From Escherichia phage Lindwurm: 64,000 nt of DNA. This document shows, in pieces, positions 7,507 to 64,000 of this stretch (the stretch's first letter is position 1; each line of letters starts with the position of its first letter). The notes below the pieces were generated by a model, which was not told the origin of the DNA, made no database searches, and saw nothing but the letters and a program-made list of their open reading frames with translations. The stretch is taken from the sequence record NC_134264.1; one strand, given 5' to 3'. The position numbers were made by a program, and so were the translations under genes.

Positions 7507-7544
7507 ATTCCTTAAATCCTGATAACTATAAAAAGGAAAGCCAA

Positions 7545-9875: not shown

Positions 9876-9883
9876 TAAAAACA

Positions 9884-9910
9884 AGGAGATCTTCGGGTCT
9901 CCTTTTTCTT
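9884..9910 (+). terminator. rho-independent terminator
   Basis: GGAGATC-TTCG-GGTCTCC hairpin plus TTTTTCT. Confidence 0.65.
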
Positions 9911-9921
9911 TGAAATTTTAC

Positions 9922-9950
9922 TTGCTAATCGCTACCAGATTTGCTATAAT
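9922..9950 (+). promoter_or_regulatory. T5-type early promoter upstream of nrdB
   Basis: TTGCTA-17 bp-TATAAT. Confidence 0.6.
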
Positions 9951-9981
9951 ATTCCTGAAATAGTGAGAAAGAGGAAAATCA

Positions 9982-48696: not shown

Positions 48697-49427
48697 TGAA
48701 AGATTTGGCTGTAAAGTTTAAGAATATTCTAGCCCTCGCTAAGGGGGCTGATCATCGCTGTTTCTCTGATTTAACCACTGAAGAGAAACATGCAGTAATG
48801 TTTGTTTGCGAAATGTTCCCAGCTAGATGGGAGGGTGGTAAGATTAAGTATGATAACAAAGCAGCAAAAGCTGACCTTGCTTATTCTTACGTTGATATGA
48901 ATAAACTCCTCAAGTCTTTAGACCCCACTGCTAAAGGTCACATGGGAAACTATATTCATGTTATCATTGATGAACCTCTCCCGGCTTATAGAGAAACATC
49001 CGCTAGAGAAGCATTAGAAGCATATCCAGAACAATTATACATCCCACCTAAGAAATGTAAGTTCGATTATCTTCCGGCGTTAGCATTTGAAACTAGTATC
49101 ACGTTTGAAGATATTTATAGAACGATTGGAGCTGTAGTAGCACGGATTGCAGTGGCACATCATCGTGGCATAGAACTTACTACAGCGGAAGATTATATCC
49201 TATACGCTATCCATGATGAAAAGGACTCCTTCAAACGTCTAATGGATGCTCTAGGATTAGGCAGTCTCACTGCGCTTGTGCTTAACCAGGCTCCTAGAAC
49301 CAAGCGTTATGCAAAGGGATCTATTACTCTTGAAGAAACAGGATCTACATCTTCATTCCTTGCTACATATATTTATTTAGCATCTAAAGGAATCTATCTA
49401 AAGGCTAGAAAGAATGTCACTATATAA
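48696..49427 (+). CDS. hypothetical protein
   Basis: 243-aa ORF. Confidence 0.5.
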   Translation: MKDLAVKFKNILALAKGADHRCFSDLTTEEKHAVMFVCEMFPARWEGGKIKYDNKAAKADLAYSYVDMNKLLKSLDPTAKGHMGNYIHVIIDEPLPAYRETSAREALEAYPEQLYIPPKKCKFDYLPALAFETSITFEDIYRTIGAVVARIAVAHHRGIELTTAEDYILYAIHDEKDSFKRLMDALGLGSLTALVLNQAPRTKRYAKGSITLEETGSTSSFLATYIYLASKGIYLKARKNVTI

Positions 49428-49770
49428 AGTATATATTCTTGCGAACAGGGATCTGACAAAGATCCCTAAGAGAACAAAGATCGGTATTAGCATGAATCCA
49501 CATAATAGGATTCAAACTCTAAACTTAGATAAGATAGTCTATCGAGGTTTTGACGATTTATACGTATATGGGATCTATGAAACCCATAACCCTAGAGATC
49601 TAGAAGCCGCTGCTCATATCTACTTTAAGAAATACCGCTGTAATTTAAAGGGATTCGAAGGATGTACAGAGTTCTTTGATATTCACCCACAACTTGCAGA
49701 ACGATTCCTATTAAATACAGGAGCCAAAAAGATTTACGATCCCAATACCAATCTCGAAGGAGATGTATAA
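49414..49770 (+). CDS. T5orf172 / GIY-YIG-like nuclease-domain protein
   Basis: KVYILANRDL...KIGISMNPHNR resembles the GIY-YIG-like T5orf172 signature. Confidence 0.5.
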   Translation: MSLYKVYILANRDLTKIPKRTKIGISMNPHNRIQTLNLDKIVYRGFDDLYVYGIYETHNPRDLEAAAHIYFKKYRCNLKGFEGCTEFFDIHPQLAERFLLNTGAKKIYDPNTNLEGDV

Positions 49771-49787
49771 ACATTAACAAAATCTTC

Positions 49788-49817
49788 TTGACAACTCATT
49801 GCGGCACATGTTATAAT
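49788..49817 (+). promoter_or_regulatory. consensus sigma70 promoter facing ORF-free repeat region
   Basis: TTGACA-18 bp-TATAAT; nothing coding for ~1.7 kb downstream. Confidence 0.55.
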
Positions 49818-50120
49818 AATCTCATAGATTAAAAACAACTCTTGTTTTGAACTCTAGGGGCGATGATTATTACACTTAGTATTACGTCTATACGTTGCGA
49901 CAGCATGAGTATAGATCTAATTACTAAGTCTTCAGTAATACTCACGCGCCCCACGAGTAAGCTCTCATGAAATGGGGCTACTTTACTTTTAATTTACCTT
50001 ATAATATTTAAAGACAATATCTGTGTTCAAGATGATACACCTGTTGCCACCCTCCATCTCTAGGATCACATACACTTTCCTAGAAACTCCAGAGTTCTCA
50101 CGAAATATCACACTTCTAGT

Positions 50121-50191
50121 GGGCGGTTCTCCTAAGTTTCTAGGAACATATACTAGGCGGTTAATACAGGGCGGTTATGGGGAGGGCGGTT
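50121..50191. repeat. four direct copies of GGCGGTT
   Basis: GGGCGGTT at 50121, 50156, 50169 and 50184. Confidence 0.7.
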
Positions 50192-50235
50192 ATTTCTAGG
50201 AGACATTTTTTGAAAACACTTTTCCAGAAATTACT

Positions 50236-50836
50236 GTCGGATTTGCACATTGTGTTTCTAGAAATTTATGGTCGGATTTGCACAATTGCCTAAGTTTTTA
50301 GGAACATATAATCTCCTGAAAATGGCAGCATTATTTCGGGCCGAAGGCCCATGATTGCCTGAGTTTTTAGAGCCACAAGAATTTTCACTTGTCAAGCTAT
50401 TTTGCCCCATTTTGCTAATAAAATTTTACTTTATCTCGCCCCAAGCCCAATTAACCTAAATTATCTCAACTCTTCCCCAAAAACGCAGCAAATCAGGCGT
50501 TGCACGCCACACATGCTGCCCCCCTAGCTTCTCCCCTAATTTTCTCTCGCTCTCTCAACTTCTCCCCAAATCCACACAACCCACACCCTCCAATCGAAGT
50601 CACAAAAATCTTGTCGGTTTCGCACATCTTAATCCTAGAAAAACCATGTCGGATTTGCACATACCCCACAGGATTCGAACGCAGTTCGAGATTGCTGGAG
50701 TTTTTGGGAAAACTCCTTGTCGGATTTGCACACTATAAAAATTTTTCGGGTCGGATTTGCACACTACCAAAAATTGTCGGATTCGCACATACACGCCCGC
50801 ACGTAACACCCGTGGAGCAATGTCGGTTTTGCACAA
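50236..50836 (+). repeat. eight dispersed copies of 14-mer GTCGG(A/T)TT(T/C)GCACA
   Basis: Copies at 50236, 50270, 50612, 50647, 50718, 50749, 50775 and 50821. Confidence 0.8.
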
Positions 50837-50838
50837 AA

Positions 50839-50860
50839 GCGCAGGGCAATTGCCCTGCGC
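50839..50860. repeat. perfect 22-bp palindrome GCGCAGGGCAATTGCCCTGCGC
   Basis: Read directly; self-complementary. Confidence 0.8.
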
Positions 50861-50867
50861 TAAATAC

Positions 50868-51040
50868 GAATGATAATAAGAATCAATCTCATTTAGAAAG
50901 TGGAATGAGAATGATAATAATTCGCATTTAGAAAATGAAATGAGAATCAATCTCATTTAAGAAGTGAAACGATTCTCATTTAGAAAGTGGAATGCAAATG
51001 ATAATGATTTGCATTTAAGAATGGAAGTGAGAAACACTGT
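50868..51040. repeat. array of AATGAGAAT / ATTCTCATT-type palindromic half-sites
   Basis: Repeated TCTCATTTAGAAAGTGGAATG and ATGCAAAT...ATTTGCAT units. Confidence 0.65.
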
Positions 51041-51048
51041 TATTTAAG

Positions 51049-51141
51049 TTATCCACAGACTTATTAACAGCACGATTTGACTTGACAAAATCCTAGCCAT
51101 TTTGAGGCGTTATCAACAGACTTATCCACAGCTTATCCTAC
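51049..51141 (+). promoter_or_regulatory. DnaA-box cluster
   Basis: Perfect TTATCCACA at 51049 and 51122; 8/9 TTATCAACA at 51110; 7/9 at 51133. Confidence 0.65.
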
Positions 51142-51158
51142 TGTATAAATATACAGTA
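51139..51158. promoter_or_regulatory. LexA (SOS) box-like palindrome
   Basis: TACTGTATAAATATACAGTA, 19/20 to consensus TACTGTATATATATACAGTA. Confidence 0.6.
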
Positions 51159-51348
51159 GTCCTATGTAGTGAATAATTCTAATATAGCGTTAAAACGTCC
51201 TAGATCGCATTCTAACGCGTTTAATTTTGGTGGGGATACTAAAACAAGGGCAAAATTGGAGGAGGCTTGAAAATTAGTTAGCCCGCTAACGATCACACAA
51301 GGCGACACGTAACACCCTAACCATTAGCAGGCTAACCATCGCGGGCGC

Positions 51349-51369
51349 GGTTAAATGAGAATGATTCTC
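51349..51369. repeat. 21-bp palindrome AAATGAGAAT-G-ATTCTCATTT
   Basis: Perfect 10-bp arms; same half-site family as the 50868-51040 array. Confidence 0.7.
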
Positions 51370-51524
51370 ATTTGAGAGTTGGGGGCACTTCCTGATAGTT
51401 GCGCCCCGTGATTATTATAGTAGTGGGCAACCGTTACGCTTTGCCCACTCCCGCCACTCATCTTGATGCCTAGACTTGCGACGGCGTACTAAAAACCGCT
51501 TGTACCAGTGATTAAACCATCGTT

Positions 51525-51728
51525 TCATAAACCCTCCTCCGGTAGTCGATGCGTGATTTTTTCCTCTTCCCCGTAGGAATCCACCAAATGCTGATAATAA
51601 CCATCGTGATCATAAATCACTTTATCATACTCGCCACGCTCGACCGCTCGCCGATTCTCCGGCGTATCAGGCACGTAAAAAACGTCAACCATTGTACTAG
51701 TTTTGGTCACAACAATTTTATTGCTCAT
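51525..51728 (-). CDS. hypothetical protein
   Basis: 67-aa ORF, last gene of minus-strand operon. Confidence 0.45.
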   Translation of the reverse strand: MSNKIVVTKTSTMVDVFYVPDTPENRRAVERGEYDKVIYDHDGYYQHLVDSYGEEEKITHRLPEEGL

Positions 51729-51782
51729 AATAACTCCTAGTAAATATATATAATCTCATTGCAATACGCCAAAACTATATAG

Positions 51783-51998
51783 TTACTCATATTCTAGCTC
51801 GAAAATACTCTCACCATATAATTTGATTAAATCAATTAAATAAAACGCTGTGCCAGTATTATTATTTCTTCTTATAAATCTATGATGCGCGTCTTTAAAT
51901 ACAGTGAATACATCACCTGTTTTACCTACTCCCCATAAATCCTGTGTTAATTTTACCCGTTTAACCTTTAGCAACATATTCCAAGTAATTTCATTCAT
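51783..51998 (-). CDS. hypothetical protein
   Basis: 71-aa ORF; overlaps upstream stop. Confidence 0.45.
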   Translation of the reverse strand: MNEITWNMLLKVKRVKLTQDLWGVGKTGDVFTVFKDAHHRFIRRNNNTGTAFYLIDLIKLYGESIFELEYE

Positions 51999-52339
51999 TG
52001 CGCCACCTTTCGAAACGCTGTTTCAATACTATCCGCAGTGGATTGAATATATGCGCCTTTCATTATCAGGCGCTCAGTACATACCTTGCGGAAAATATTA
52101 ATAAAATCATCTTCATTTTCTGCAATTAATGCTTCCCCCATAACTTGAACGTCACAAGATGCAAAGGTCAAAAATTGAAACGCTAGTTCACGGGCAACGA
52201 CCGCATTGATTTTATAATGCGCCTTGCCCTCATAAATATTAATAACGCCCTTATAAGCTGGTGAAAGCTGATTTAAATAGTTTGCTAATAATGCCGGGCG
52301 GCAATTAGCAACAAAACGATTGCCCTCATAAATAACCAT
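51995..52339 (-). CDS. hypothetical protein
   Basis: 114-aa ORF. Confidence 0.5.
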   Translation of the reverse strand: MVIYEGNRFVANCRPALLANYLNQLSPAYKGVINIYEGKAHYKINAVVARELAFQFLTFASCDVQVMGEALIAENEDDFINIFRKVCTERLIMKGAYIQSTADSIETAFRKVAQ

Positions 52340-52466
52340 TCGACAACCTCCCGATTAGGTATCCAGATAAAAGCATAAAAATCCCCAATGAAATGGGGTC
52401 ATTTTTGAATAAGGTGGCGGTAAAACCGCCAACCATTGCAAGGGCAATAACGATAACGCTTTTCAT
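52326..52466 (-). CDS. small membrane peptide
   Basis: 46-aa hydrophobic hand-translated ORF; ATGA overlap with upstream stop. Confidence 0.35.
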   Translation of the reverse strand: MKSVIVIALAMVGGFTATLFKNDPISLGIFMLLSGYLIGRLSNGYL

Positions 52467-52675
52467 AGTACCCCACGAAACGCAGCGTAAAAGGTGGCAA
52501 AATGTTTAACCGTTTCAGCGATCACGTTGCCGCGCTTATCAAATTTTTTCTCGGTAACACGAAAAGCGTTTTTATTACGTGCTACATATTCGATTTTACA
52601 ATCTTCCCGCTCGAACGTGTTAGCATCCACCAGCTTAAAGCCTTTCGAACGTGCAAGAGAAACGTTGCGGATCAT
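52463..52675 (-). CDS. hypothetical protein
   Basis: 70-aa ORF with AGGAGAA RBS. Confidence 0.45.
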   Translation of the reverse strand: MIRNVSLARSKGFKLVDANTFEREDCKIEYVARNKNAFRVTEKKFDKRGNVIAETVKHFATFYAAFRGVL

Positions 52676-52677
52676 TT

Positions 52678-52827
52678 TTATTCTCCTTTACCAGTCATGC
52701 AGCCCAGCAGATAAGAAAATACAGCGATACCCGCGCCGATAATAACCGCGTGAACGCCGAAAGCTATTGCAAACAAAGATAAAATAGCGCCCAAGATACC
52801 CGCTAAAATAGCTCGAAAAATAACCAT
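52678..52827 (-). CDS. small membrane peptide
   Basis: 49-aa hydrophobic hand-translated ORF with AGGAGG RBS. Confidence 0.35.
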   Translation of the reverse strand: MVIFRAILAGILGAILSLFAIAFGVHAVIIGAGIAVFSYLLGCMTGKGE

Positions 52828-52876
52828 TTGTGATAGCCTCCTAGTTAGTGGGGCGAAAGTAACGCCCCGTTATTAA

Positions 52877-53107
52877 TTACATTAAAACAATTTTTGCCGC
52901 TTGTTTTTTGGTACAGTGTTCCGCTTTCAGGGTATCCAGCAAAAAGCCAGCCGTTTGCTGATCGATTTTATCGGCGTTATATAGTTCCTGTATGGTGTTA
53001 TAAGTTTTAGCAATACCGAACTCCTGCACCATTTCATGAATGATGACGCGGTTAGATACCCAGCCTTGCGCGGTAAACAGATGACTAGCAGAAGAATAAG
53101 CAACCAT
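52877..53107 (-). CDS. hypothetical protein
   Basis: Start MVAYSSASHL at 53107 with GGAGG RBS; track ORF extends to 53140. Confidence 0.4.
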   Translation of the reverse strand: MVAYSSASHLFTAQGWVSNRVIIHEMVQEFGIAKTYNTIQELYNADKIDQQTAGFLLDTLKAEHCTKKQAAKIVLM

Positions 53108-53213
53108 TTTAAGCCTCCAAATTTTTGGGAAAATTTTCAACCGTCCTCAAACGGTGTAAAGGCATTATAGCAAAAAAGGCCACCATAAAAGGCGACCTTT
53201 ACAAAACTTTACA

Positions 53214-53732
53214 TTAAACTACTTGTAAGGATTCAACATTGAAACATCGTTTCAATTCGTCATGTAAAACAGCGTATTCATCCCATCGGGTACTATCAGG
53301 GATATAAACAAGCTGTTTTAATCGGTTTGCATATATTACCGCTTTGTTATCAATTATCTCGACGCCACCATATTTAATAATTAATTTCATGACGGAATTA
53401 ATAGGATCGCCGCCGTTTACATATGTGCCGGATTTACTTAGCTGATAATGATAAAGGCTCGCATATACGTTTTCATTTTCATACCATTCGCCAGTTTCTT
53501 CGTCTTCGTAACCATCGCTACCAAAACGAGAAGCGTTATCAATAGCCATTTCATGGGCGAAAGCGTCCAGATCACAACCAGCGGGAACAAAATGTTCTTC
53601 CGTCCAACCTTCCCCGCAATAGCCAGTATGACAATCGACTAAAATGATCATATCGTGTTTAGCCGTGCTCACTTCCCCTAGCGAGAAGCCGTATTTTTCT
53701 TCTAACATAATTAGTCTTCTATTAATTAACAA
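53214..53732 (-). CDS. hypothetical protein
   Basis: 172-aa ORF with Cys/His cluster DCHTGYCGEGW. Confidence 0.5.
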   Translation of the reverse strand: MLINRRLIMLEEKYGFSLGEVSTAKHDMIILVDCHTGYCGEGWTEEHFVPAGCDLDAFAHEMAIDNASRFGSDGYEDEETGEWYENENVYASLYHYQLSKSGTYVNGGDPINSVMKLIIKYGGVEIIDNKAVIYANRLKQLVYIPDSTRWDEYAVLHDELKRCFNVESLQVV

Positions 53733-53772
53733 GGGAATAGTAAAGCGGGGAAATAATCCCCGCTAGATATTA

Positions 53773-54759
53773 TTACTCGTTTTCGGTGTTAGTGGTAAAA
53801 GTAGAGATATCGATACCTTTTACCATTTCATCGATCATCTCAGCGATGTTAAAACTTTGCACCATTTCTAACATTGCCGCTTCCATAGCCGCCCCTGCTA
53901 CCGCTTTCGCTTTCTGGTTAGTCGGGGCGTACTGGTCAACCGCTACACTCAGCAGGTTAGCGATCACTACACGACCAATCGGCGTATCAATATAGCCTTT
54001 GATCATAAACGGTGCTTTTTTAGCCGCTACTTTCGTGATTTGAGTTAGTGCAATTTTACCAGCTTCCAGTTTTGCAGCGTTTACAACAGCGGATTTATTA
54101 GCGGCAACGATATTAGCGATCTTGGTCATGGTATTTTTTCCTTTGTTTTCAGTAGTTTGAGTATTAACGCTTTGAGTGTTAGAGCTTACAACCTGTTTTT
54201 CAATATTGTCAATACTTTCTTCCCTTTCGAAAGAAAATCCGGCGTCAACAATATCGCCTTCATATACACGATCATATAATTCCGGTGGCAATAAAAAATT
54301 ACCGTTATCATCAAAAGCCAATATAGCTGCATAACGATAGCCATCATAATCTGAACGATTCCACCCAACTGATAAATGACGCCAAAATGAATCGAGAAAA
54401 TTTTCTACATCATAAAGATCATTATCATTAGCCTTATAGTTTTCTATCGAGAAAACTTCTAAGCCCGCCCCAGTATCGTAGGCTTTTACTGTGCTACCTT
54501 TTACTATTACAAAATCAGCGTCCGGCCCCCGACTAGTGAGCAATTGATAATCCTGATTATATAAAACAAGCGTTGCCCCTTGTTTATATAACGGTAGAAA
54601 ACTATTCATATTATATGCATCATAATCATCAAGAAAATTATGATGAATAGTTTCAACCTTGTTAATAAAATGTTTAATGCTGGTTGACTTGCTACCATCC
54701 AGCAGGTTGCGCAATGCACCTTTTAAAACGGTGGCGTTATCAGGTTTATACAGCCTCAT
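53773..54759 (-). CDS. hypothetical protein
   Basis: 328-aa ORF, first gene of minus-strand operon. Confidence 0.55.
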   Translation of the reverse strand: MRLYKPDNATVLKGALRNLLDGSKSTSIKHFINKVETIHHNFLDDYDAYNMNSFLPLYKQGATLVLYNQDYQLLTSRGPDADFVIVKGSTVKAYDTGAGLEVFSIENYKANDNDLYDVENFLDSFWRHLSVGWNRSDYDGYRYAAILAFDDNGNFLLPPELYDRVYEGDIVDAGFSFEREESIDNIEKQVVSSNTQSVNTQTTENKGKNTMTKIANIVAANKSAVVNAAKLEAGKIALTQITKVAAKKAPFMIKGYIDTPIGRVVIANLLSVAVDQYAPTNQKAKAVAGAAMEAAMLEMVQSFNIAEMIDEMVKGIDISTFTTNTENE

Positions 54760-55023
54760 TTGTTCGGCCTCCTCGTTAATCGGTGAGTGAATGATAAAGG
54801 TAATTTTCTAGCATAGGCAAATATTATTTTACCTTTTTATTTTCCTTGCCTAGCGCCTATTTTTATGATAACCGCGCAGCGATGTAGTAAAGAGCAAAAC
54901 ACGGCGAAGCCACCAGGCCGTCGCATTGAGGCTTTGCTTTAATATTACCTAACAGCGTTTAGCTCGTTAGAACGCGATTTAGGCCGCTTAAAATTGATTG
55001 CAGTCGTTAACACTACCTTTTTA

Positions 55024-55043
55024 CCCTGTATATTTATACAGTA
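55024..55043. promoter_or_regulatory. LexA (SOS) box-like palindrome
   Basis: CCCTGTATATTTATACAGTA fits CTGT-N8-ACAG with AT-rich spacer. Confidence 0.55.
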
Positions 55044-55051
55044 GGATAACC

Positions 55052-55133
55052 TGTGGATAAGTCTGTGTAAAAGTCCTTATATTGCCGCCTATCGTGTCAA
55101 GTTATTTTGTGCTGTGGATAACATTGTGGATAA
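55052..55133 (-). promoter_or_regulatory. DnaA-box cluster
   Basis: Three perfect TGTGGATAA boxes at 55052, 55113 and 55125. Confidence 0.65.
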
Positions 55134-55174
55134 CTTAAATGATAGTGGTTCTCACTTAGGCCGATAGTTTCTTA

Positions 55175-55222
55175 TAGTTATTATTTACTGTAGTTATTAT
55201 TTATTATAATTATTATTTCTCA
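55175..55222 (+). repeat. three tandem 16-bp AT-rich iterons
   Basis: TAGTTATTATTTACTG / TAGTTATTATTTATTA / TAATTATTATTTCTCA. Confidence 0.65.
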
Positions 55223-55416
55223 TTAATTTATAGGTATATTATATATCATTAAATAGTTAGCTGGCTAATGAGATTTTCCGTGATTAATAGTCTGCTAATA
55301 ATTTAATCCGGTACAATCCACCAGCATGATTATCATCCTAGCAATTATTAGTCTGCTATCTTTCCGATACACACTAACAAATAAAAGTCAATTAATTTAT
55401 TTCATAAAATAAGTAG

Positions 55417-55502
55417 TTATCCACTGGAAAACAAAAGTCAAGTGGATAACTAGGAAAATTTCATTTTTGCTTTTGGGGATAAGTTATCAACAAGGCTAGA
55501 AT
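55417..55502. promoter_or_regulatory. additional imperfect DnaA boxes
   Basis: TTATCCACt at 55417, AGTGGATAA at 55441, TTATCAACA at 55494. Confidence 0.45.
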
Positions 55503-55895
55503 GCGCCTAAAACGCTCCAGAACGCGATAAAGTTTTTAGCCATCCCATCATAAGGGGATAAGCCGTTTATCGCTACCACGAGCTTTTTAGATTTTGTCAA
55601 GTAGGGCAAAGCAAATATAAATGAAAAAATTACTTGCCTATATGCTATGTTTTGTGGTATTCGCGCGCCCGTTTCTTTTAATTTTAGGCCGTCGCCGGAC
55701 GTGGTGCGGTGGATCGTGTCTTTACGTTTCTTTACAAAAATAAGGTTGCGCCATTTTTAGTATTTGCTATTATTTATCTCGTAGGGCGGCAATGACGAAC
55801 TACACGGCGGGAAGTTTACCGCCACGCTCTTTAAAAATTGGGTATATCTTAAAGCCTATCGGCGGTAAACTTATACATTATAAGGAATCGACGAT

Positions 55896-56099
55896 ATGAA
55901 ACAAACGCTTTTGATCACTGGCAAGCCTAGCAAGGCACTAGATAGCAAAACAAAAAATTTGTTGACAGTAGCGCAAAGATCGGTAAAATATCGATTTAAG
56001 CAATACAAGAAAGGCCGCCAGCAAGGTCTAGAAATGATCTGGCGAAACATTATGATTGACTTGAAAGAAAATCATAAAAAATCTCAAAAAATTGTTTGA
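55896..56099 (+). CDS. small basic hypothetical protein
   Basis: 67-aa ORF with AAGGAA RBS. Confidence 0.4.
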   Translation: MKQTLLITGKPSKALDSKTKNLLTVAQRSVKYRFKQYKKGRQQGLEMIWRNIMIDLKENHKKSQKIV

Positions 56100-56326
56100 C
56101 ACCCTAGCCGATAGGCTTTAAGATGTACCCAGTTCGATAAGAGCGATAACTTGATAAAATTTGACGGTCGGTGCTTACCATAATGCATCCCGCCCCCTAA
56201 CTGGGATATAGCGGCCTACGTGGAGTTCTTTAAATTGGTTAAACTGGCGAGCGGATTGTTACTTATTACCTGCTACTTTCTAGCAGGTAATGCGGAACAA
56301 TCCCCAAATAACTAGGAGTTTATACT

Positions 56327-56578
56327 ATGCAAAACGTTATTACCGCGCCGAAAGTTGGTCAATCCGTCTTCATTCCTTTCGTTACTAAAACGGATGAATT
56401 AACCGGAAAAGCCGAACGTATTAAAGGTGCGGCGCTTATGCCGTTCGATACAATCGACGCGGTATATGCTGAAAATGAACGCAGTAACAACGGCAAGCCG
56501 ATTTATAACGTTCGCGTTAAATCCGGCGACGTTGTAAAGGTTGTTCAACGCAACGAAAAATGGGAAGCTGTATTGTAA
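56327..56578 (+). CDS. hypothetical protein
   Basis: 83-aa ORF with TAGGAGTTTATACT RBS context. Confidence 0.5.
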   Translation: MQNVITAPKVGQSVFIPFVTKTDELTGKAERIKGAALMPFDTIDAVYAENERSNNGKPIYNVRVKSGDVVKVVQRNEKWEAVL

Positions 56579-56679
56579 TGTAGTGTTAACTTTATATTCC
56601 CCTGAAATATGGGGAATATATGGATTAACATTTAGTTAATCATTAAATCCCTTAAATTAAACTAATAGGAGTTTTTACC

Positions 56680-57087
56680 ATGACTAACGCTAAAACCGCA
56701 AAATTTGCATGGAATGAAGAAAATACCCAAAAAGCTGTTTCTATGTACCAGCAGTTAATCAATGAAAACGGTTTAGATTTTGCAAATAGCGACGGCTTAA
56801 AAGAGATTGCGAAAGCAGTAGGCGCGGCTTCTCCCGTATCCGTTCGGTCAAAATTGACCAGTGCAAAAGCCTATCAAAAAAGCGATAAGCCGCGCAAAGT
56901 TGGCGGCGGTAGTTCTATTCGTAAGGCTCACTATGTGCGCGTTATTGCAAAACACGCTATCGATTCCGGCATTATCAAAGACGCCGATGATCTGGCAAGC
57001 CTTGAAAGTGCTAAACTTGAAACGCTGGACGCCGTAGCGCAACTGTTAGGCGTTGCCGATGAAGTGAAACAGGCCGCAGGGGAATAA
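56680..57087 (+). CDS. A2: A2-like pre-early DNA-binding protein
   Basis: 135 aa (size of T5 A2); sits immediately upstream of A1-like gene. Confidence 0.5.
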   Translation: MTNAKTAKFAWNEENTQKAVSMYQQLINENGLDFANSDGLKEIAKAVGAASPVSVRSKLTSAKAYQKSDKPRKVGGGSSIRKAHYVRVIAKHAIDSGIIKDADDLASLESAKLETLDAVAQLLGVADEVKQAAGE

Positions 57088-57465
57088 TAGTTATATCTTG
57101 CCCCCTTCTAGTTAGGGGGCAATAATATAACTGTTTAGCGATAGTTATTTTCTTCCCTTAAATCAGGAGTTTTAAAAATGATTTTCTTCCCTACTGAATC
57201 CTTAATTCTAGGCTTATTTATTATGGCGGCCTCGTTATTGTTCTCTTATTTTCAAAATGATTTAGATTCATATTATTTTAAACGTAAATCTAAATTAGCG
57301 AAGCGTTTAGGTCTGATTTGTTTTATTGCCGCCGTTGCTTGTGGTGTTAGTTCTAGCCTAGTGCCTTTAAATTAATGTTGCAAATTATAACGCCTATTAT
57401 TCGAGGCGTTATATTTGGCAATATTGCCGTTATTAACCTAATCCCTTTAATGGAGTTTTATTACT

Positions 57466-59136
57466 ATGATTATTTCCGCAGAAAAACAAACCGTTATCCT
57501 GAAAATGGCCGCTGATTTCAATTTCTACGGTAAACGCCTGCGCGCCACTAAATTGGAAGTTTGTGACGATATTTCGAAAGCGGTATACGATACTACTAAA
57601 CACTCCACCGCTATCTGCGACTGGCTGGAAGCAAATAAACCAGCGAAACCAAAAGTAGCAAAAGTAGCAAAAGCCATTAAAAACGATGAGCGCCCCGAAG
57701 CGGCTGGGATTGTTTCTAGTACCGTGGAACAGTGGGAAGTAAAACAAGGTAAACGTTTTATTATTACGTCGATTCAGAATAATACTTTCCCGCATAAAAA
57801 CTTTTTAGCCTCACTGGAGCAATTTGCTAAATATATCGGCGCTGATTTGCTTGTTTCTAAGTATATTTATAATAAAAACGGCTTTCAAAATGGGGAAGGT
57901 GCCGACGGAATCATATTTGATTCCGTGTTTGATAAATATATTTGCAGCAAAAACGTGTTTTTGAATAACCGCCGTTTCGCTTTCATGGCTGAAATTAATG
58001 TTTTGCCCACCGCAGATTATCCGCTTTCAGGATTCGCAGAAACTGCAACGGCTTTAAATATTGAGGGGCTGGCAATTGGTCACGCTAAAATTACCGCTGA
58101 AAGCGTGCCAGCTTTAAAAGGTGAAGTAGTGCGCCGTATGTATTCAACCGGAACGGCAACACTCAAAAACTACATTCAGCAGAAAGCAGGACAGAAAGCG
58201 GAAGCACTTCATAATTTTGGTGCGCTGATTGTCGAGTTTGACGATGATGGTGAGTTTTTTGTTCGCCAGCTTGAAACAATGGACGAAAGCGGCATGTTTT
58301 ACGATTTGAATATTTGCGCCACTCCTTCAGGATGTTTTGAAACGTCGGGGCATGTTTTAGGCTTGCAGTATGGCGATATTCATGCAGAAAAACTAGATGA
58401 GGCTTGCGCTCAAGCGTCTTGGGGTCATGGGGATACTTATGGGCTTGTGGATATTCTCAAACCAAAATATCAGTTTGTACATGATGTGCATGATTTTACA
58501 TCCCGCAATCACCATAACCGCGCATCCGGTGTATTCCTAGCGAAACAGTATGCCGCCGGACGTGATAAGGTTATTGATGATCTTATCGATACGGGTCGCG
58601 TGCTGGAATCGATGGAACGTGATTTTAGTCAAACGATCATTGTCGAATCGAATCACGATTTGGCGCTATCCCGTTGGCTTGATGATCGTAATGCTAACAT
58701 TAAGGACGATCCCGCAAACGCGGAACTATATCACCGCCTGAATGCGGCTATTTACGCGGCAATCGGTGAACACGACGAAACGTTTAACGTGCTAGATTAT
58801 GCGCTGCGCAAGGTTGCAGGTTGTGAATTTAACGCCATTTTCCTGACAACTGACCAATCGTTTAAAATTGCAGGCATTGAATGCGGCGTACACGGTCACA
58901 ACGGCATTAACGGCAGTCGTGGCAATCCTAAGCAGTTTAAGAAACTGGGTAAATTGAACACGGGGCACACCCATACCGCTAGCATTTATGGCGGCGTATA
59001 TACCGCTGGCGTAGCTGGTAGTCTGGATATGGGTTACAACGTTGGCGCGTCAAGCTGGACGCAGACGCATTTAATTACCTATGCAAACGGTCAGCGCACT
59101 TTGATTGACTTTAAGAATGGTAAATTCTTTGCGTAA
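57466..59136 (+). CDS. A1: A1-like pre-early protein with metallophosphoesterase motifs
   Basis: 556 aa (size of T5 A1); GDIH and VHDVHD blocks. Confidence 0.65.
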   Translation: MIISAEKQTVILKMAADFNFYGKRLRATKLEVCDDISKAVYDTTKHSTAICDWLEANKPAKPKVAKVAKAIKNDERPEAAGIVSSTVEQWEVKQGKRFIITSIQNNTFPHKNFLASLEQFAKYIGADLLVSKYIYNKNGFQNGEGADGIIFDSVFDKYICSKNVFLNNRRFAFMAEINVLPTADYPLSGFAETATALNIEGLAIGHAKITAESVPALKGEVVRRMYSTGTATLKNYIQQKAGQKAEALHNFGALIVEFDDDGEFFVRQLETMDESGMFYDLNICATPSGCFETSGHVLGLQYGDIHAEKLDEACAQASWGHGDTYGLVDILKPKYQFVHDVHDFTSRNHHNRASGVFLAKQYAAGRDKVIDDLIDTGRVLESMERDFSQTIIVESNHDLALSRWLDDRNANIKDDPANAELYHRLNAAIYAAIGEHDETFNVLDYALRKVAGCEFNAIFLTTDQSFKIAGIECGVHGHNGINGSRGNPKQFKKLGKLNTGHTHTASIYGGVYTAGVAGSLDMGYNVGASSWTQTHLITYANGQRTLIDFKNGKFFA

Positions 59137-59203
59137 TTAAATTGATAAGCTGGGAATATTCCCAGCTTAAATACCTTATTAAATTAATTGGAGTTTTATA
59201 GAT

Positions 59204-59596
59204 ATGAAAAAGCAAAATATTCCATTCGATCGCGCTCAGTCCTCAATTGTTCTAGTTTATTCTAATGGCGAACGTTACCACGTCGAGGCGGGGCACGTTA
59301 TTGATGAATTATTAGATTTCAATGATGCGATGCAGGTTACAACATTTGCATATATGCAGGGCAAACTAACCAGCCATATTAAAGCAAAAGGCGTTTATGT
59401 TGACACGATGAAACAAGAAACAATCATTATTGACGCAGTAAAATCCGGCCTAGCCTTTGCAGTTGTCGCGCCTTGCCCCGCTTGCCTTGATGATCAATTG
59501 ATTTCTGCAAAAGTATATACTTGTGCGGGGATTCGTTCCAGCGTATCCGGCGAAGATATTAGTTTTATCGCTGATGCGTTGGCTTATGGTCTTTAA
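59204..59596 (+). CDS. hypothetical protein
   Basis: 130-aa ORF with TTGGAGTTTTA RBS context. Confidence 0.5.
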   Translation: MKKQNIPFDRAQSSIVLVYSNGERYHVEAGHVIDELLDFNDAMQVTTFAYMQGKLTSHIKAKGVYVDTMKQETIIIDAVKSGLAFAVVAPCPACLDDQLISAKVYTCAGIRSSVSGEDISFIADALAYGL

Positions 59597-59676
59597 TAGT
59601 TGATTTATTATTACCCGCTTATAAATAGCGGGTAATGCTGGATAAACTAAATCCCTTTAATGGAGAACGTAACAAA

Positions 59677-60411
59677 ATGAATCAAGTTAAAACGAATATT
59701 ACCCGTAATTTCCCGCATATTTCCCGCGTCATGATTTGGGATCTGGACGGCACTATCATTAATTCTTTCCATCGTGTAGCGCCTTGCTTTGATAGCGAGG
59801 GCAATTTAGATTTAAATAAGTATAAAAATGAGGCTTGCAAACATCATTTAATAATGCAAGATACCTTATTGCCATTAGTTGAATATATGCGCCAGTGCAT
59901 GAATGATGCAAATACTTTAAACGTTATTTGTACCGCTCGACTGATGAGCAAGTCAGACTATTATTTCTTGCGCAAACAAGGCTTGCGCGGTCGTGATAAA
60001 AGCAATATCCGTGTATTTTCCCGCGATACACTACACAAGTATTTTGAGGCTGATAAAGTTAGCGAGATATACCACAGCAAAGACGCAGTATACAAATCTT
60101 ATTATTTTGAATTATTTAAACAGCTATATCCGAACGCTGATTTCACAATGATTGATGATCATAAAGGTGTGCTATCAGCGGCGGCGTCATACGGATTTAA
60201 AACGCTGGACGCACAAGCCGTTAACGATATTCTATCAATCGGCGTGGCATTGATAGGCGGAACCTTTATTGATGAATCTCTCGATGATGATAATGATTAT
60301 CAGTTCCTAGCTGACCGATTGAAATTATGTTGGGAAAGTATGACCGAGGAAGAACGCGCAGAATATAGTTGCAGCCCTCAACAATATATTGAGAAATTAA
60401 AAGTTGCGTAA
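59677..60411 (+). CDS. dmp: HAD-family 5'-deoxynucleotidase (Dmp-like)
   Basis: 244 aa from ATG 59677; WDLDGTII HAD motif; RBS context AATCCCTTTAATGGAG shared with A1. Confidence 0.6.
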   Translation: MNQVKTNITRNFPHISRVMIWDLDGTIINSFHRVAPCFDSEGNLDLNKYKNEACKHHLIMQDTLLPLVEYMRQCMNDANTLNVICTARLMSKSDYYFLRKQGLRGRDKSNIRVFSRDTLHKYFEADKVSEIYHSKDAVYKSYYFELFKQLYPNADFTMIDDHKGVLSAAASYGFKTLDAQAVNDILSIGVALIGGTFIDESLDDDNDYQFLADRLKLCWESMTEEERAEYSCSPQQYIEKLKVA

Positions 60412-60568
60412 TAATTAAAGTTGAAATAGTCACGGTGTGTAATGATAACATGCCGTGACTATTAGCTTGCTAAGTACCGGGCGGTAATGAGACTCATTCT
60501 CATCTGGGAGGCCACTGGACACACCTCCATGTGTAATCTTATGAAATTTGGCAAAAGTCAAATTAGCG

Positions 60569-60778
60569 CTATTTACGGACTGACTGCCTGAGAATGGACT
60601 GCCATAGAGGGTCAGTCTTAACAAGATTATTGATGTACTCAATAGCTTCATCAAATCTCATAAATCCTTCTGGGATTTCCGAAGACTTAGGAAAAACTGA
60701 GAGCATCTCCTGGGTGAGACCTCTCTTTTCAATTTCTTCCTTAGTTAATTTAAACTGCTCATAGTTATTCTTCACCAC
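60569..60778 (-). CDS. hypothetical protein
   Basis: 69-aa ORF. Confidence 0.4.
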   Translation of the reverse strand: MVKNNYEQFKLTKEEIEKRGLTQEMLSVFPKSSEIPEGFMRFDEAIEYINNLVKTDPLWQSILRQSVRK

Positions 60779-60989
60779 TCACCTTAGCCCGAAATCTCTT
60801 CCGCGACGCCCGAGATCCATCCGACCACTCCCGCTCAAACTCCGCACGTTTCTCGTCAAACTTCCGCTCCCTTTCCGCAATCTCCCGCGTCACCCCCGCA
60901 ATATATTCCCGATGCTTGTTAATTGCCGCAGTCGTCCCGAAAACTCCCGCGAGTATCCCGATAATAAAAGCAATTATAATACTAAACAT
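60765..60989 (-). CDS. small membrane protein
   Basis: 74 aa, N-terminal TM helix. Confidence 0.4.
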   Translation of the reverse strand: MFSIIIAFIIGILAGVFGTTAAINKHREYIAGVTREIAERERKFDEKRAEFEREWSDGSRASRKRFRAKVSGEE

Positions 60990-61398
60990 TATTTATATTC
61001 CCGCAACTTACGTTCAATACGAGCTAAGTGGTTATCCAAGACACACTGCCCTAGAATTACCACAACTAATAAAACAATAATTATTACTCCCATTAAATCC
61101 ACCCCGCCATAGCTGCTAACCAAAAACCTACGAAGATTAGGAATAATACAAAACCAAATCCGTAAATATTAATCCACGCTTCGTACACTTCTCCGCGTCT
61201 GTTCTTTCTTTTATTTGACATATCTTTCGTGCCCCCGTAAATGTGGTATTTTAAAATATTTTATAATTTGTGCATAACCAACCATGCTTGTGACTTCCTA
61301 GAAGGACTTCTACTTTTCTTACATAGTGGTTTCTGCCAATATACCATCCAAGAAATAAAAAATTTAGTTTACTTGGATGTCTTTTTGCTTTATACTAA

Positions 61399-61665
61399 TT
61401 ACAGGTAGTTAGATTGCTCTAGTTTAAATTTACAATCACCATATTTAAGGTCAAACTGACTGAGATCCCACCACCCAAACTTAGTACGGAGCTGTACTAC
61501 TGGGAAGCGATCTCCCTTAATACGAACTTTTTGAACCTTGAGACCGTAATGTTCTTCTCCCGCACCACCAAAAGATTTTACAAATCCCGTGCAAAATGGT
61601 TTGGGAGCAGGTGCACAACCAGATAACATAACTGCGGCAACTAGTGCAATAACAAACTTTTTCAT
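61399..61665 (-). CDS. llp: lipoprotein (Llp-like receptor-blocking lipoprotein)
   Basis: Lipobox MKKFVIALVAAVMLSGC; divergent from and adjacent to receptor-binding protein gene. Confidence 0.55.
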   Translation of the reverse strand: MKKFVIALVAAVMLSGCAPAPKPFCTGFVKSFGGAGEEHYGLKVQKVRIKGDRFPVVQLRTKFGWWDLSQFDLKYGDCKFKLEQSNYL

Positions 61666-61750
61666 ATTTATCTCTCCATTTCTAATTTATGAATCTATTA
61701 TAGCAAAATAGAGGGATGAAAGCAAATACATTTTTATAATAGGAGATTAT

Positions 61751-63508
61751 ATGGGTTTTTTCGCTGGAAAATATAGCGATGGTAAGACCGTACTATCTTT
61801 AAATACTGAATCTGGTGGTGACATTAATCGTCACTATAGTCCAAATAATAATAGTATTTTTCATAGTGATATGCCATTTGTCCTAGTTGATGGTACTTAT
61901 GAGGCTGGGTTAGGCGATGCCGGAAATGGGTTTTTTGTATGTCAGATGCCCTCTGACATAATAAATATTAAATCTAATGACCCAGGTAGAGTTATACTAA
62001 CTGCCATTGAGATTAATGGTACTCATAGGGCTTTTCTTAATGGTACTCAGAGTAAGGTGGGTCAAACTATAGTTGCCACTCAAGCAGACCCCTTTAGATC
62101 TTTTGCTAGCGTTTCCCAGACTAGTGGATTTGCATTTGGTAATAGCCTGGCATCTGGAACATATAACTATAACTCATCTATAGGTCATGAAGAATCTATC
62201 TCTAGAAACGGTACTGGTGGAACCACCCTACATAGCACTTATCATGGTATAGTTAGGCCAGGTGCAGGAGCTCCAGTAGGTATTACTGTTGCAGAAGCTT
62301 TTGCACAGCTGGGTTTTCCTACTAATAGTAGTACAGTACCCATAGATGGTAATAACCAATATTACTGGGACCCAGGATGGATGTCTCCTTTAGGATCAGC
62401 ATACAGAGGACACGATTGGTTTTATGTTTGTAGCTCTAACATACGTGGGTATGGTGGAGTAAGACAAGGTCTTCCTGGTAATGTAAACACTATGTATCAT
62501 GATGGGGGTAATAGATTTGTTTGTAGGGGTTCTACAACCAATTTAGCTAATCAATCTGGTAATGCTACAATATTACAGGATTGGTATAACATAACTCCTA
62601 CTAAGGTTATTTGGTACGTTTTGAATTTAAGATATTCTAATGGTAATATGGGTATCTCTGGTAATCCTTTTACTGGTTCAGATATTCTTATCTCTCCCTC
62701 TAATTTTACTATAAAAGGGGTTAGTCTTCCTAATACTGGGTATAAGTTTATTAACCAGAATGCTTTTGGTAACTTAGGTTATAGGCCAGATATGGAATAC
62801 GTCGGAAATAACGCAGCGTACACTGGAGCCTTCGGAGATACCACTGCAAGGTGTGAACTTGTAGGCTCTAGTAATGGAAGTTTATGGTCTCCTGTAGACT
62901 ATGGAGGGGCTAAGTCTCAAATTAGTATTTACAAATTCGGAGCAGGTAAGCAATGGTACGTAAACTCAAGTAATAACACTATTGGTAACGAACATGGTAT
63001 TGTTTGGGGGCCTTCTTCAGTTCCTCTGAGACTTTTTAGTGGAAATGTTGGTAGTTCTTACATGGGGGATGATATTACTCCTTACTATCCAGGAACTGGA
63101 GATAGATATGTGGCTTTATCTACTATTGGACTAGGAATTCCAGGAGGTAATGCTACCATTATTCTTACTACTGAAGTTATATCTGGTAATCTTAATTGTG
63201 CTGGTGTTCCAGCTAATACATGGAATAACGGTGTATTTCAGGTGCAGGGAAGAAGGGCTTATATCTATAGTAATGGAGATGCAATATTCCACCAGATTTT
63301 AACATTACCTGTAGGTTACTTAGTACCCTTTCATACTACATCTGCATTTAGATACACACCTAATAATGCACTAAGTAGAAATAGTTTCATATATACAGTT
63401 AAAAATCTAGGAAATGGAAATGTAGAGTTAGGGGTAGTTATGCACGTAAGTTTAGGTAGTGCAGTTTTCCTACCTAGATTAAGAGTAACAGTTCAACGCC
63501 TTACCTAA
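61751..63508 (+). CDS. oad: receptor-binding tail protein (pb5/Oad-like)
   Basis: 585-aa Gly/Asn/Ser/Thr-rich protein next to divergent lipoprotein gene; AGGAGA RBS. Confidence 0.5.
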
Positions 63509-63518
63509 AGGAGGAAAT

Positions 63519-64000
63519 ATGGCAAATGATGTATTAGTACCAGATCTTATGTCCCCTGAAGGGATGGATGTAATTGAAGCTTATTTACAGTGTGGCAGCG
63601 ATGTGCCTTCTGCCGCACGTAGTCTTGGGATGTCCGAAATTGCCTTCCGAGATATTATGAATCGTAGTGAAGTTAAGAACTACTTAAATGATATTTTTAT
63701 GGAGAGTGGATTCCGTAACAGAGATCGTTTGTTTGGTGTTCTAGATGAAGTTATCAAGCGTAAGCTGGAGGAACTAGAAGAAACCGGCATGGGTTCTGAC
63801 CAGGATATTATGGACATTCTCTGGAAGGCACACAAGATGAAGATGGAAGAAATGAAAATGATGGTAGAACTGGAGAAAGTGAAGGCAGCAGCCCGTACTC
63901 CAGCCAATCAGACCAACATCCAGAATAATATTATTGCTGGAGCTGGGGATCAAAACTACATGGACTTAATTACTTCCCTAGCTACTGGAGGTAAGAAGTA
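63519..64000 (+). CDS. terminase small subunit-like protein, N-terminal part
   Basis: AAGGAGG RBS; HTH-like region then coiled coil; runs off window end. Confidence 0.4.

What the first reader, a model, noticed from the sequence alone, without database searches (positions are those of the whole stretch)
49788..61300. Probable collapsed terminal repeat joining late-region end to early-region start
The block carrying the dmp, A1 and A2 homologues and the repeat array (~10.5 kb, close to the 10.1 kb T5 terminal repeat) lies between the early region and an llp/oad/terminase-like late-region start. In a linear T5-type genome these sit at opposite ends, so this order implies a circularly permuted or concatemer-derived assembly with the two repeat copies collapsed. 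The block also looks more GC-rich and lacks the T5-type early promoter family.
Basis: inference. Interest (0 to 1): 0.5.

Follow-up and report, generated by a model that had tools for sequence, protein, structure and literature searches.

The report
Collapsed T5-type long terminal repeat
This stretch is the single assembled copy of the ~10.15-kb terminal repeat of a T5-like phage, joined on both sides to DNA that lies at opposite ends of the real linear genome; this is a routine, well-documented assembly outcome and not a new biological feature.

Summary
The window comes from a Tequintavirus (T5-like phage), about 93-95% identical to its nearest database relatives. The block does carry dmp, A1, A2 and the injection-stop repeat array. 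It sits between early genes and llp/oad/terminase.

Six records hold, or annotate, both repeat copies: two T5 sequences, L6jm, MM-2, BF23 and Kenya-K15/K37. Mapping their physical ends places the repeat at window 50370-60520/60521 (10,151-10,152 bp), not 49788-61300. Both cut-site motifs are present once each and are essentially identical to those relatives.

The interpretation, one repeat copy in a permuted assembly, is supported by topology and by literature on close relatives: twofold coverage, pulsed-field gel (PFGE) sizing and PhageTerm. Read depth cannot be checked here. About 82% of deposited T5-like genomes show the same layout.

The GC enrichment is marginal. The absence of the early promoter family is confirmed.

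It has the same architecture in all 35 T5-like loci examined, but at least eight unrelated sequence versions, with compensatory changes.

The parts
50370..60521 (.). Single assembled copy of the long direct terminal repeat, which is the first-step-transfer (pre-early) region. It runs in reverse orientation relative to T5. On the T5 model it is 10,152 bp; on the L6jm/MM-2 model it ends at 60520.
   Evidence: The ends of T5, L6jm and MM-2 map to exactly 50370 and 60520/60521; Kenya-K15 and K37 map within 30 nt. There is no second copy in the window.
60513..60549 (-). Late-region/repeat junction motif AAATTTCATAAGATTACACATGGAGGTG|TGTCCAGTG. The homologue of the physical left end of the virion DNA is base 60521 (T5) or 60520 (L6jm, MM-2).
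   Evidence: The motif matches with 0 mismatches in all 7 fetched loci that span this junction. The annotated right-repeat starts of T5 and MM-2 and the L6jm record start fall at the bar.
50363..50395 (-). Repeat/early-region junction motif TTGACAAGTGAAAATTCTTGTGGCTC|TAAAAAC. The homologue of the physical right end is base 50370.
   Evidence: The motif occurs once in the window, with 0 expected by chance. It is present with at most 2 mismatches in 34 of 44 loci. The annotated repeat ends of T5 (10219), AY587007 (10139), L6jm (10386), MM-2 (10299) and BF23 (9743, set by PhageTerm) all fall exactly after its 26th base.
59677..60411 (+). dmp (deoxynucleoside-5'-monophosphatase) homologue. Its stop codon lies 109-110 nt from the left-end homologue, as in L6jm and T5.
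   Evidence: phrog_415, E = 2.7e-57; maps to T5 124-858.
59204..59596 (+). T5.002 homologue. The T5.003 homologue is absent between this gene and A1.
   Evidence: phrog_4576, E = 1.7e-82; alignment gap against L6jm and T5.
57466..59136 (+). A1 (DNA transfer protein) homologue.
   Evidence: phrog_1745, E = 5.5e-243; maps to T5 1706-3376.
56680..57087 (+). A2 (DNA-binding protein) homologue.
   Evidence: phrog_1725, E = 4.3e-52; maps to T5 3727-4134.
54760..56326 (.). Untranslated divergent pre-early promoter region, corresponding to T5 repeat regions 1-2. It holds the inverted-repeat arm 55026-55157 with four DnaA-type boxes (55052, 55064, 55113, 55125, minus strand) and the P-H22 homologue TTGACA-16-TAAAAT at 55962-55989 (+). 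The small T5.008 homologue at 55896-56099 overlaps it.
   Evidence: description of IRCspacerIRD in 10.1101/866236.
51525..54759 (-). Leftward-transcribed pre-early ORFs: the T5.011 homologue at 53773-54759, a phrog_6741 ORF at 53214-53732 that T5 lacks, and T5.012-T5.017 homologues down to 51525.
50130..51542 (.). Injection-stop-signal region, corresponding to T5 repeat region 3. It holds the inverted-repeat arm 51025-51156 with the DnaA-type box pairs TTATCCACA-gac-TTATTAACA and TTATCAACA-gac-TTATCCACA. It also holds eight 16-nt DRD repeats at 50234-50835, two of which lie outside the repeat end. The homologue of the T5 7.9% nick falls between 50838 and 50839 on the + strand (AAAA|GCGC), inside the 24-nt perfect palindrome 50838-50861.
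   Evidence: T5 annotation: iss (injection stop signal) at 9140-10149, nick at 9748/9749. Repeat region 3 overruns the repeat by 270 bp in T5.
49788..49990 (+). OUTSIDE the repeat (unique, early side). A perfect sigma-70 promoter (TTGACA-18-TGTTATAAT, 49788-49817) is followed by a predicted ~165-nt RNA. The RNA has a small 5' hairpin (49832-49848), a long hairpin (49857-49952), and a terminator-like hairpin with a U-run ending near 49990.
60569..61266 (-). OUTSIDE the repeat (unique, late side). Small membrane-protein ORFs homologous to T5.159-162 and L6jm ORF156-159.
61399..64000 (.). Late-region end: llp (Cor-type receptor-blocking lipoprotein) at 61399-61665 (-), oad/pb5 (receptor-binding protein) at 61751-63508 (+), and the small terminase subunit from 63519 (+), which runs off the window.
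   Evidence: phrog_1119 E = 1.8e-26 and phrog_4815 E = 3.4e-272; 95% identity to T5.156.

Best explanation
The window comes from a T5-like phage (Tequintavirus) whose virion DNA is linear with a ~10.15-kb direct repeat at each end. In this sequence the two copies are represented once, at window 50370-60520/60521, so the late-region end (llp, oad, terminase) and the early-region start are joined through it. This is the layout an assembler gives for a phage with direct terminal repeats, and also the layout of a replicative concatemer junction.

The repeat is the first-step-transfer DNA. It carries the pre-early genes dmp, A1 and A2 under their own sigma-70 promoters. It also carries the injection-stop region with its paired DnaA-type boxes, 16-nt repeats and a conserved nick site.

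Shown here: gene content, the repeat anatomy, the two junction motifs, and the topology.
Inferred: that the virion DNA of this particular phage is cut at those motifs, and that read depth is twofold across the block.
For: - The block is 90-93% identical over more than 90% of its length to 156 T5-like records.
- The physical ends of T5, L6jm and MM-2 map to exactly 50370 and 60520/60521; Kenya-K15 and K37 map within 30 nt.
- The right-end motif is present once in the window. The annotated repeat ends of five records, including BF23's PhageTerm-derived end, fall exactly at its 26th base.
- The left-end motif is conserved in all 7 junction-spanning loci.
- The 599 nt just outside the repeat gives 451 places in 440 records, so it is single copy even in two-repeat genomes. 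A1 gives 520 places in 442 records.
- T5 annotation places the early flank next to the left repeat only and the late flank next to the right repeat only.
- Literature: more than twofold coverage and pulsed-field gel (PFGE) confirmation in relatives about 95% identical to the window (PMC10783031). Assemblers place the first base of direct-terminal-repeat phages arbitrarily (PMC5557969). Many GenBank T5-likes have dmp/A1/A2 internal for this reason (10.1101/866236).
Against: - No reads, depth or termini are available for this assembly, and the source contig was not found in IMG/VR, GTDB genomes or JGI metagenomes.
- One relative's record, Kenya-K36, annotates a repeat that begins 33 nt inside the T5 left end and runs about 600 nt past the conserved right-end motif, up to the first early ORF. 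Either some deposited boundaries are imprecise or the cut site can differ.
- The three T5 records annotate the left repeat as 10,219, 10,139 and 9,749 bp.
Confidence: 0.9

Rival explanations
1. The repeat is, roughly 49788-61300 (about 11.5 kb). On this reading it includes the promoter-hairpin locus on the early side and the small membrane-protein genes on the late side.
For: The Kenya-K36 record annotates a repeat reaching the equivalent of window ~49,775-49,809 on the early side, and both copies in that record are identical.
Against: - T5 (two independent sequences), L6jm, MM-2 and BF23 all end the repeat exactly at the conserved motif, equivalent to window 50370.
- K36 itself carries that motif about 600 nt inside its annotated repeat.
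- Window 49771-50369 is single copy in other two-repeat records.
- The late-side genes T5.159-162 lie outside the right repeat in T5, MM-2, K15 and K36.
Confidence: 0.04
2. The junction is biological rather than an assembler collapse. On this reading the sequenced DNA included replicative concatemers or circular forms in which unit genomes are joined through one repeat copy.
For: The sequence alone cannot separate this from a collapse. PhageTerm describes direct terminal repeats as generated from concatemers by extension synthesis at staggered nicks, which implies a single-copy junction in the precursor.
Against: This is not exclusive of the main explanation, because the virion DNA would still carry two copies. 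Reads from virions alone give the same contig.
Confidence: 0.05
3. This phage has lost fixed ends. On this reading it packages by the headful mechanism, so the genome really is circularly permuted and has no defined terminal repeat.
For: No direct evidence. It simply cannot be excluded without reads.
Against: - Both terminus motifs match phages with mapped fixed ends: the 33-nt right-end and 37-nt left-end motifs are found with 0 mismatches, and the repeat's outer bases equal those of MM-2 and L6jm.
- The complete two-step-injection apparatus is intact and in canonical order: dmp-A1-A2 next to the left end, the injection-stop region, DnaA-type boxes and the nick-site sequence. That apparatus needs a fixed left end.
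Confidence: 0.01

Closest known systems
Terminal repeats of phage T5 (NC_005859: 1-10219 and 111532-121750; AY587007: 10,139 bp)
   Same: - The gene order dmp, T5.002, A1, T5.005, A2, T5.007, T5.008 is the same.
- The untranslated divergent promoter region and the T5.011-017 block are present.
- The injection-stop region has the 131/132-nt inverted repeat, paired DnaA-type boxes, DRD repeats overrunning the repeat end, and the GCGC nick site.
- The sequences at both cut sites match.
- The neighbours are the same: T5.018 on the early side and T5.162/llp/oad/terminase on the late side.
   Different: - Identity to T5 is 84-90%.
- There is no T5.003 homologue and no hegG HNH endonuclease (T5.010).
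- There is an extra 172-aa ORF (phrog_6741) and an extra small ORF next to the left end.
- There are eight DRD copies rather than nine.
- It is present once and internally, not at two record ends.
Salmonella phage L6jm (MN956514), Escherichia phage MM-2 (PV577658), BF23 (OR083247): T5-like records deposited with both repeats
   Same: The termini map to the same bases. L6jm is 93% identical across the block, and the outermost 30 nt of the repeat are identical to L6jm at the left end and to MM-2 at the right end.
   Different: Those records are written in virion orientation with two copies (10,386, 10,299 and 9,743 bp). The window has one copy in permuted form.
Single-copy permuted deposits such as Stokescottia (OR896820), SCF (PP735124) and DaisyDussoix (MZ501058)
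   Same: They have the same layout as the window: early genes, one repeat copy, then llp/oad. About 82% of A1-containing records hold one copy (442 records, 520 places).
   Different: Nothing of substance. The window is a further example of this layout.
phi29 pRNA (analogy for the side observation only; recalled from general knowledge, not tested here)
   Same: It is a small RNA gene beside a genome end, driven by a strong host-type promoter, whose secondary structure is conserved among relatives while the sequence is not.
   Different: T5-like phages have a TerS/TerL terminase and no known RNA requirement. The fold here is one long hairpin, not a three-way junction. No experimental data exist for it.

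Membership tests
T5-type long direct terminal repeat / first-step-transfer region (Tequintavirus, Demerecviridae) | dmp, A1 and A2 in that order, starting about 100 nt from the left physical end | tested here: met
   dmp 59677-60411, A1 57466-59136, A2 56680-57087. The dmp stop lies 109-110 nt from the left-end homologue.
T5-type long direct terminal repeat / first-step-transfer region (Tequintavirus, Demerecviridae) | A large untranslated injection-stop region at the inner end of the repeat, with the IRD'spacerIRC' / IRCspacerIRD inverted repeat, eight DnaA-type boxes in pairs 3 bp apart, and DRD repeats that overrun the repeat end | tested here: met
   Arms at 51025-51156 and 55026-55157 (132 nt, 79% complementary). 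Boxes at 51049, 51061, 51110, 51122 (+) and 55052, 55064, 55113, 55125 (-). Eight DRD copies, two of them beyond 50370. Criteria taken from 10.1101/866236.
T5-type long direct terminal repeat / first-step-transfer region (Tequintavirus, Demerecviridae) | Conserved sequences at the two terminase cut positions | tested here: met
   Right-end motif at 50363-50395 and left-end motif at 60513-60549, each with 0 mismatches. Annotated ends of five or six relatives fall at the same base.
T5-type long direct terminal repeat / first-step-transfer region (Tequintavirus, Demerecviridae) | Unique early DNA adjoins only the left copy, and unique late DNA (T5.159-162, llp, oad, terminase) adjoins only the right copy | tested here: met
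   T5, MM-2, K15 and L6jm annotations. In the window both flanks adjoin the one copy.
T5-type long direct terminal repeat / first-step-transfer region (Tequintavirus, Demerecviridae) | The same sequence is physically present at both ends of virion DNA (twofold read depth, read termini, gel or restriction size) | not testable with these tools
   No reads or physical data exist for this assembly. Shown for close relatives in PMC10783031.
T5-type long direct terminal repeat / first-step-transfer region (Tequintavirus, Demerecviridae) | A site-specific single-strand nick (7.9% nick) within the injection-stop region | not testable with these tools
   The sequence context AAAA|GCGCAGGGCAATTGCCCTGCGC is conserved at 50835-50861. 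The nick itself is a property of virion DNA.
Headful-packaged, circularly permuted genome | No fixed termini, only a pac-initiated or random series of ends | not testable with these tools
   This needs read termini. The sequence evidence (intact fixed-end motifs, intact first-step-transfer apparatus) argues against it.
Any RNA family in Rfam 15 (for the hairpin RNA locus 49788-49990) | A match to a curated covariance model | tested here: not met
   Only tRNAs reach the gathering score in the window. In 49750-50400 the best E-values are 0.3-5, against unrelated families and far below their thresholds.

The most novel reading that the evidence does not exclude

It has a near-consensus sigma-70 promoter, a 5' mini-hairpin, a 95-130-nt long hairpin and a terminator. 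Its sequence has been replaced at least eight times, with compensatory changes. It is the first gene beyond the repeat and injection-stop region, so it would be the first early transcription unit to enter on second-step transfer. It points towards the terminase cut site about 380 nt away. It could act in repeat-end processing or packaging, in the early takeover, or as an anti-defence decoy.
Probability: 0.35. Interest if true: 0.55.

Novelty: already known. Interest (0 to 1): 0.12.

Why it matters
For this genome the consequence is practical. The true virion genome is about 10.15 kb longer than the assembly. The 16 or so pre-early genes are present in two copies. The record should start at the base homologous to window 60520/60521 and run in the opposite orientation, ending with a second copy that stops at 50370. 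Annotating it that way places dmp/A1/A2 and the injection-stop region where they act, at the end that enters the cell first.

It does not open a new question, because long terminal repeats of T5-like phages and their collapse in assemblies are textbook and well documented.

The conserved cut-site motifs compiled here could serve as a simple sequence rule for re-orienting the roughly 80% of deposited T5-like genomes that are permuted. The unannotated hairpin RNA gene next to the repeat is the only element here that might repay experimental work.

Tried and rejected
- **Source contig.** I looked for it to inspect its length and ends. Exact 39-42-nt patterns found only L6jm in IMG/VR, nothing in GTDB genomes and nothing in JGI metagenomes. 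The nearest phage records are only 93-96% identical.
- **GC-richness as a marker of the block.** Rejected, because the block lies within one SD of 10-kb windows of the same sequence.
- **A protein-coding reading of the hairpin locus.** Rejected. The 36-codon ORF in the window becomes 25 codons in the type B version through a -2/+1 indel pattern, and types C and D have no start codon. Yet the 3' flank is conserved at the nucleotide level. The 55-codon ORF over the invariant 20-mer is cut to 9 codons in T5.
- **RNAalifold on a MAFFT alignment of 13 hairpin variants.** I relied instead on per-type folding statistics and within-type comparisons.
- **Rfam**, at gathering and permissive thresholds: nothing relevant.
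- **A target of the hairpin RNA by complementarity within the window.** There was one 13-nt match against about 0.3 expected by my own estimate, so chance level.
- **A second repeat copy or fragment elsewhere in the 64 kb.** None found.
Full report
**What the window is.** Megablast of 49788-61300 finds 556 phage records, all T5-like. The best are Stokescottia and L6jm at 93% identity over 91-94% of the query. The early region is 94-96% identical to Kenya-K37, SCF and FFH1. The window also has the T5-type array of 21 tRNA genes. It is therefore a Tequintavirus that is not itself in the collections searched.

**Checking the observation.**
- To the right lie llp at 61399-61665 (-), oad/pb5 at 61751-63508 (+) and the start of the small terminase gene.
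- To the left the early operon ends at 49770.
- The repeat array is real. It has eight copies of TGTCGGATTTGCACA at 50234-50835, 75-nt and 25-nt repeats around 50850-51380, and a 132-nt inverted repeat at 51025-51156 / 55026-55157.
- The two arms carry eight DnaA-type boxes in pairs separated by 3 bp. This is exactly the anatomy Davison describes for the injection-stop region of 25 T5-like phages (10.1101/866236).

**Where the repeat really begins and ends.** T5 (NC_005859) annotates its repeats at 1-10219 and 111532-121750. L6jm holds two copies of 10,386 bp and MM-2 two copies of 10,299 bp.
- BLAST and MAFFT of their record ends against the window put the right physical end at window 50370 in all three. 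The left physical end falls at 60521 (T5) or 60520 (L6jm, MM-2).
- Kenya-K15 and K37, whose repeats were set with PhageTerm and coverage, fall within 10-30 nt.
- The right-end junction motif TTGACAAGTGAAAATTYYTGTGGCTC|TAAAAAC occurs once in the window, at 50363-50395 on the minus strand, with none expected by chance. It occurs in 34 of 44 fetched loci. The annotated repeat ends of T5, AY587007, L6jm, MM-2 and BF23 (PhageTerm, 9743) all lie exactly after its 26th base.
- The left-end motif AAATTTCATAAGATTACACATGRAGGTG|TGTCCASTG is intact at 60513-60549 and in all seven loci that span that junction.
- The repeat is therefore 50370-60520/60521, that is 10,151-10,152 bp.

- The early-side 599 nt (49771-50369) gives 451 places in 440 records, so it is single copy even in genomes deposited with two repeats. 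A1 gives 520 places in 442 records.
- The late-side margin holds homologues of the unique T5.159-162 genes.
- One outlier exists. The Kenya-K36 record annotates a repeat that starts 33 nt inside the T5 left end and runs about 600 nt past the conserved motif. I treat this as an imprecise or atypical boundary and list it as evidence against exactness.

**Interpretation.** In every record written in virion form, the sequence left of 50370 adjoins only the left repeat and the sequence right of 60521 adjoins only the right repeat. One copy flanked by both, as in the window, can only be a permuted representation with the two copies merged.
- PhageTerm's authors state that the region between the termini of a direct-terminal-repeat phage shows twice the coverage, and that assemblers place the first base arbitrarily (PMC5557969).
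- The Kenyan study reports more than twofold coverage over this region and pulsed-field gel (PFGE) confirmation for phages about 95% identical to the window (PMC10783031).
- Davison remarks that many GenBank T5-likes have dmp/A1/A2 in the wrong place because of the repeats.
- About 82% of A1-containing records hold a single copy.

It cannot be proven for this assembly without its reads.

**Secondary claims.**
- GC is 40.2% in the repeat, 39.1% in the window and 37.3% in the adjacent early region. 16% of 10-kb windows are at least as GC-rich, so this is not a distinguishing property.
- The early promoter family is real: AAAAATTnnTTGCTn-17-TATAAT followed by ATAAATTGA. It has 25 matches, of which 22 lie on the + strand between 6184 and 49788 and one lies upstream of llp. 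None lies within the repeat.
- The repeat has its own strong sigma-70 promoters in the divergent region 54760-56330, including the homologue of T5 P-H22.

**How the repeat works (established knowledge for T5, applied by homology).** The left copy enters first and transfer pauses at the injection-stop region. The pre-early genes, including A1 and A2, are then expressed and are required for the rest of the DNA to enter. The window keeps all parts in canonical order, including the nick-site sequence AAAA|GCGC at 50838/50839 inside a perfect 24-nt palindrome. Compared with T5 it lacks T5.003 and the hegG HNH gene, and it has an extra 172-aa ORF.

Window 49788-49817 is a perfect sigma-70 promoter (TTGACA-18-TGTTATAAT) directly after the last early ORF, pointing towards the repeat.
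- No conserved ORF follows it.
- The predicted ~165-nt transcript folds into a 5' mini-hairpin, a long hairpin (49857-49952) and a terminator-like hairpin. Its minimum free energy is -55 kcal/mol, z = -6.0, and none of 200 shuffles folds as well.
- All 35 loci recovered with the invariant downstream 20-mer AAGATGATACACCNGTTGCC (31 distinct sequences, including T5 at about 10,645-10,879 on the minus strand) have the same promoter-hairpin-terminator layout. The long hairpin exists in at least eight unrelated sequence versions.
- Nine representatives give z-scores from -2.7 to -7.0. In all nine the promoter-sense strand folds better than the antisense strand, with 3-7 G-U pairs.
- T5 and a close variant differ at 14 positions, six of which form three double compensatory pairs.
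- The mini-hairpin shows three more double changes between types A, E and F.
- The locus is unannotated in NC_005859, AY692264, AY587007 and BF23. It is absent from Rfam and is not mentioned in Davison's analysis of this region.
- Its function is unknown. My suggestions are repeat-end processing, a first early transcript, or a decoy, and all are speculative.

**Verdict.** The finding is a correct recognition of a known feature, with boundaries that need moving to 50370 and 60520/60521. It is already known and of low interest. The adjacent hairpin RNA locus is the only item worth follow-up.

Noticed in passing
window 49788-49990 (+); T5 NC_005859 about 10,645-10,879 (-): An unannotated, strongly promoted ~165-nt hairpin RNA gene sits just outside the terminal repeat. 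Its position and three-hairpin architecture are conserved in all 35 T5-like loci examined. There are at least eight unrelated sequence versions of the long hairpin, with compensatory changes within and between types. The sense strand is always more stable than the antisense strand. It is not in Rfam or in the four records checked: three T5 annotations and BF23.
   Followed up: partly
window 50029-50048 (+): The 20-mer AAGATGATACACCNGTTGCC, between the hairpin RNA terminator and the repeat end, is invariant across the seven divergent T5-like phages aligned (Tequintavirus, plus Epseptimavirus SB10/PYC03 in the fuller locus set) and retrieved 21 IMG/VR loci. The ORF that overlaps it is not conserved (9 codons in T5), so it looks like a DNA or RNA site of unknown function about 320 nt from the terminase cut position.
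   Followed up: partly
window 49414-49770 (+): A 118-aa ORF with a T5orf172/MUG113 (GIY-YIG-like) domain overlaps the end of the T5.018 homologue by 14 nt. It matches only the first 102 of 236 positions of the PHROG 'homing endonuclease' profile. It is present in relatives carrying hairpin types A and B (SCF, K15, K37, E22, phC11, SB10) and absent from T5 and L6jm.
   Followed up: partly
window 6184-49788 (+), 1105 and 4157 (-), 61725 (-): There is a tight family of 25 T5-type early promoters (AAAAATTnnTTGCTn-17-TATAAT-6-ATAAATTGAGAGG). Several sit directly in front of tRNA genes rather than ORFs, for example 24020 ahead of tRNA-Ser at 24064. The copy at 61725 (-) drives llp.
   Followed up: partly
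window 50234-50284 versus 50611-50835: The 16-nt DRD repeats of the injection-stop region straddle the repeat end, with six copies inside and two in unique DNA. The terminase cut site therefore lies inside a repeat array, as noted for T5, where the array overruns by 270 bp.
   Followed up: yes
window 50838-50861 and 59146-59169: There are two perfect 24-nt palindromes. The first (AGCGCAGGGCAATTGCCCTGCGCT) contains the homologue of the T5 7.9% nick site. The second (AAGCTGGGAATATTCCCAGCTT) lies just after A1, at the point where the T5.003 homologue is missing relative to T5 and L6jm.
   Followed up: partly
L043/L044 (OQ291033 Kenya-K36); L040 (AY692264): Public annotations of the repeat are inconsistent. 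K36's repeat (1-8641) starts 33 nt inside the T5 left end and runs about 600 nt past the conserved cut motif. AY692264 annotates the T5 left repeat only as far as the nick (1-9749), against 10,219 and 10,139 in the other two T5 records.
   Followed up: partly
hits (e.g. OR846838 'Listeria phage LM 4-11-1', OR849099, 'Campylobacter' and 'Klebsiella' phage records): Records named for Listeria, Campylobacter or Klebsiella hosts carry pre-early DNA 89-92% identical to this enterobacterial T5-like phage. Several are short unannotated fragments. They are probably contaminants or mislabelled.
   Followed up: no
window 53214-53732 (-), and the absence of T5.003 and T5.010 homologues: The gene content of the repeat differs from T5. 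There is an extra 172-aa ORF (phrog_6741, shared with L6jm and MM-2), no hegG HNH endonuclease, and no T5.003 homologue.
   Followed up: partly
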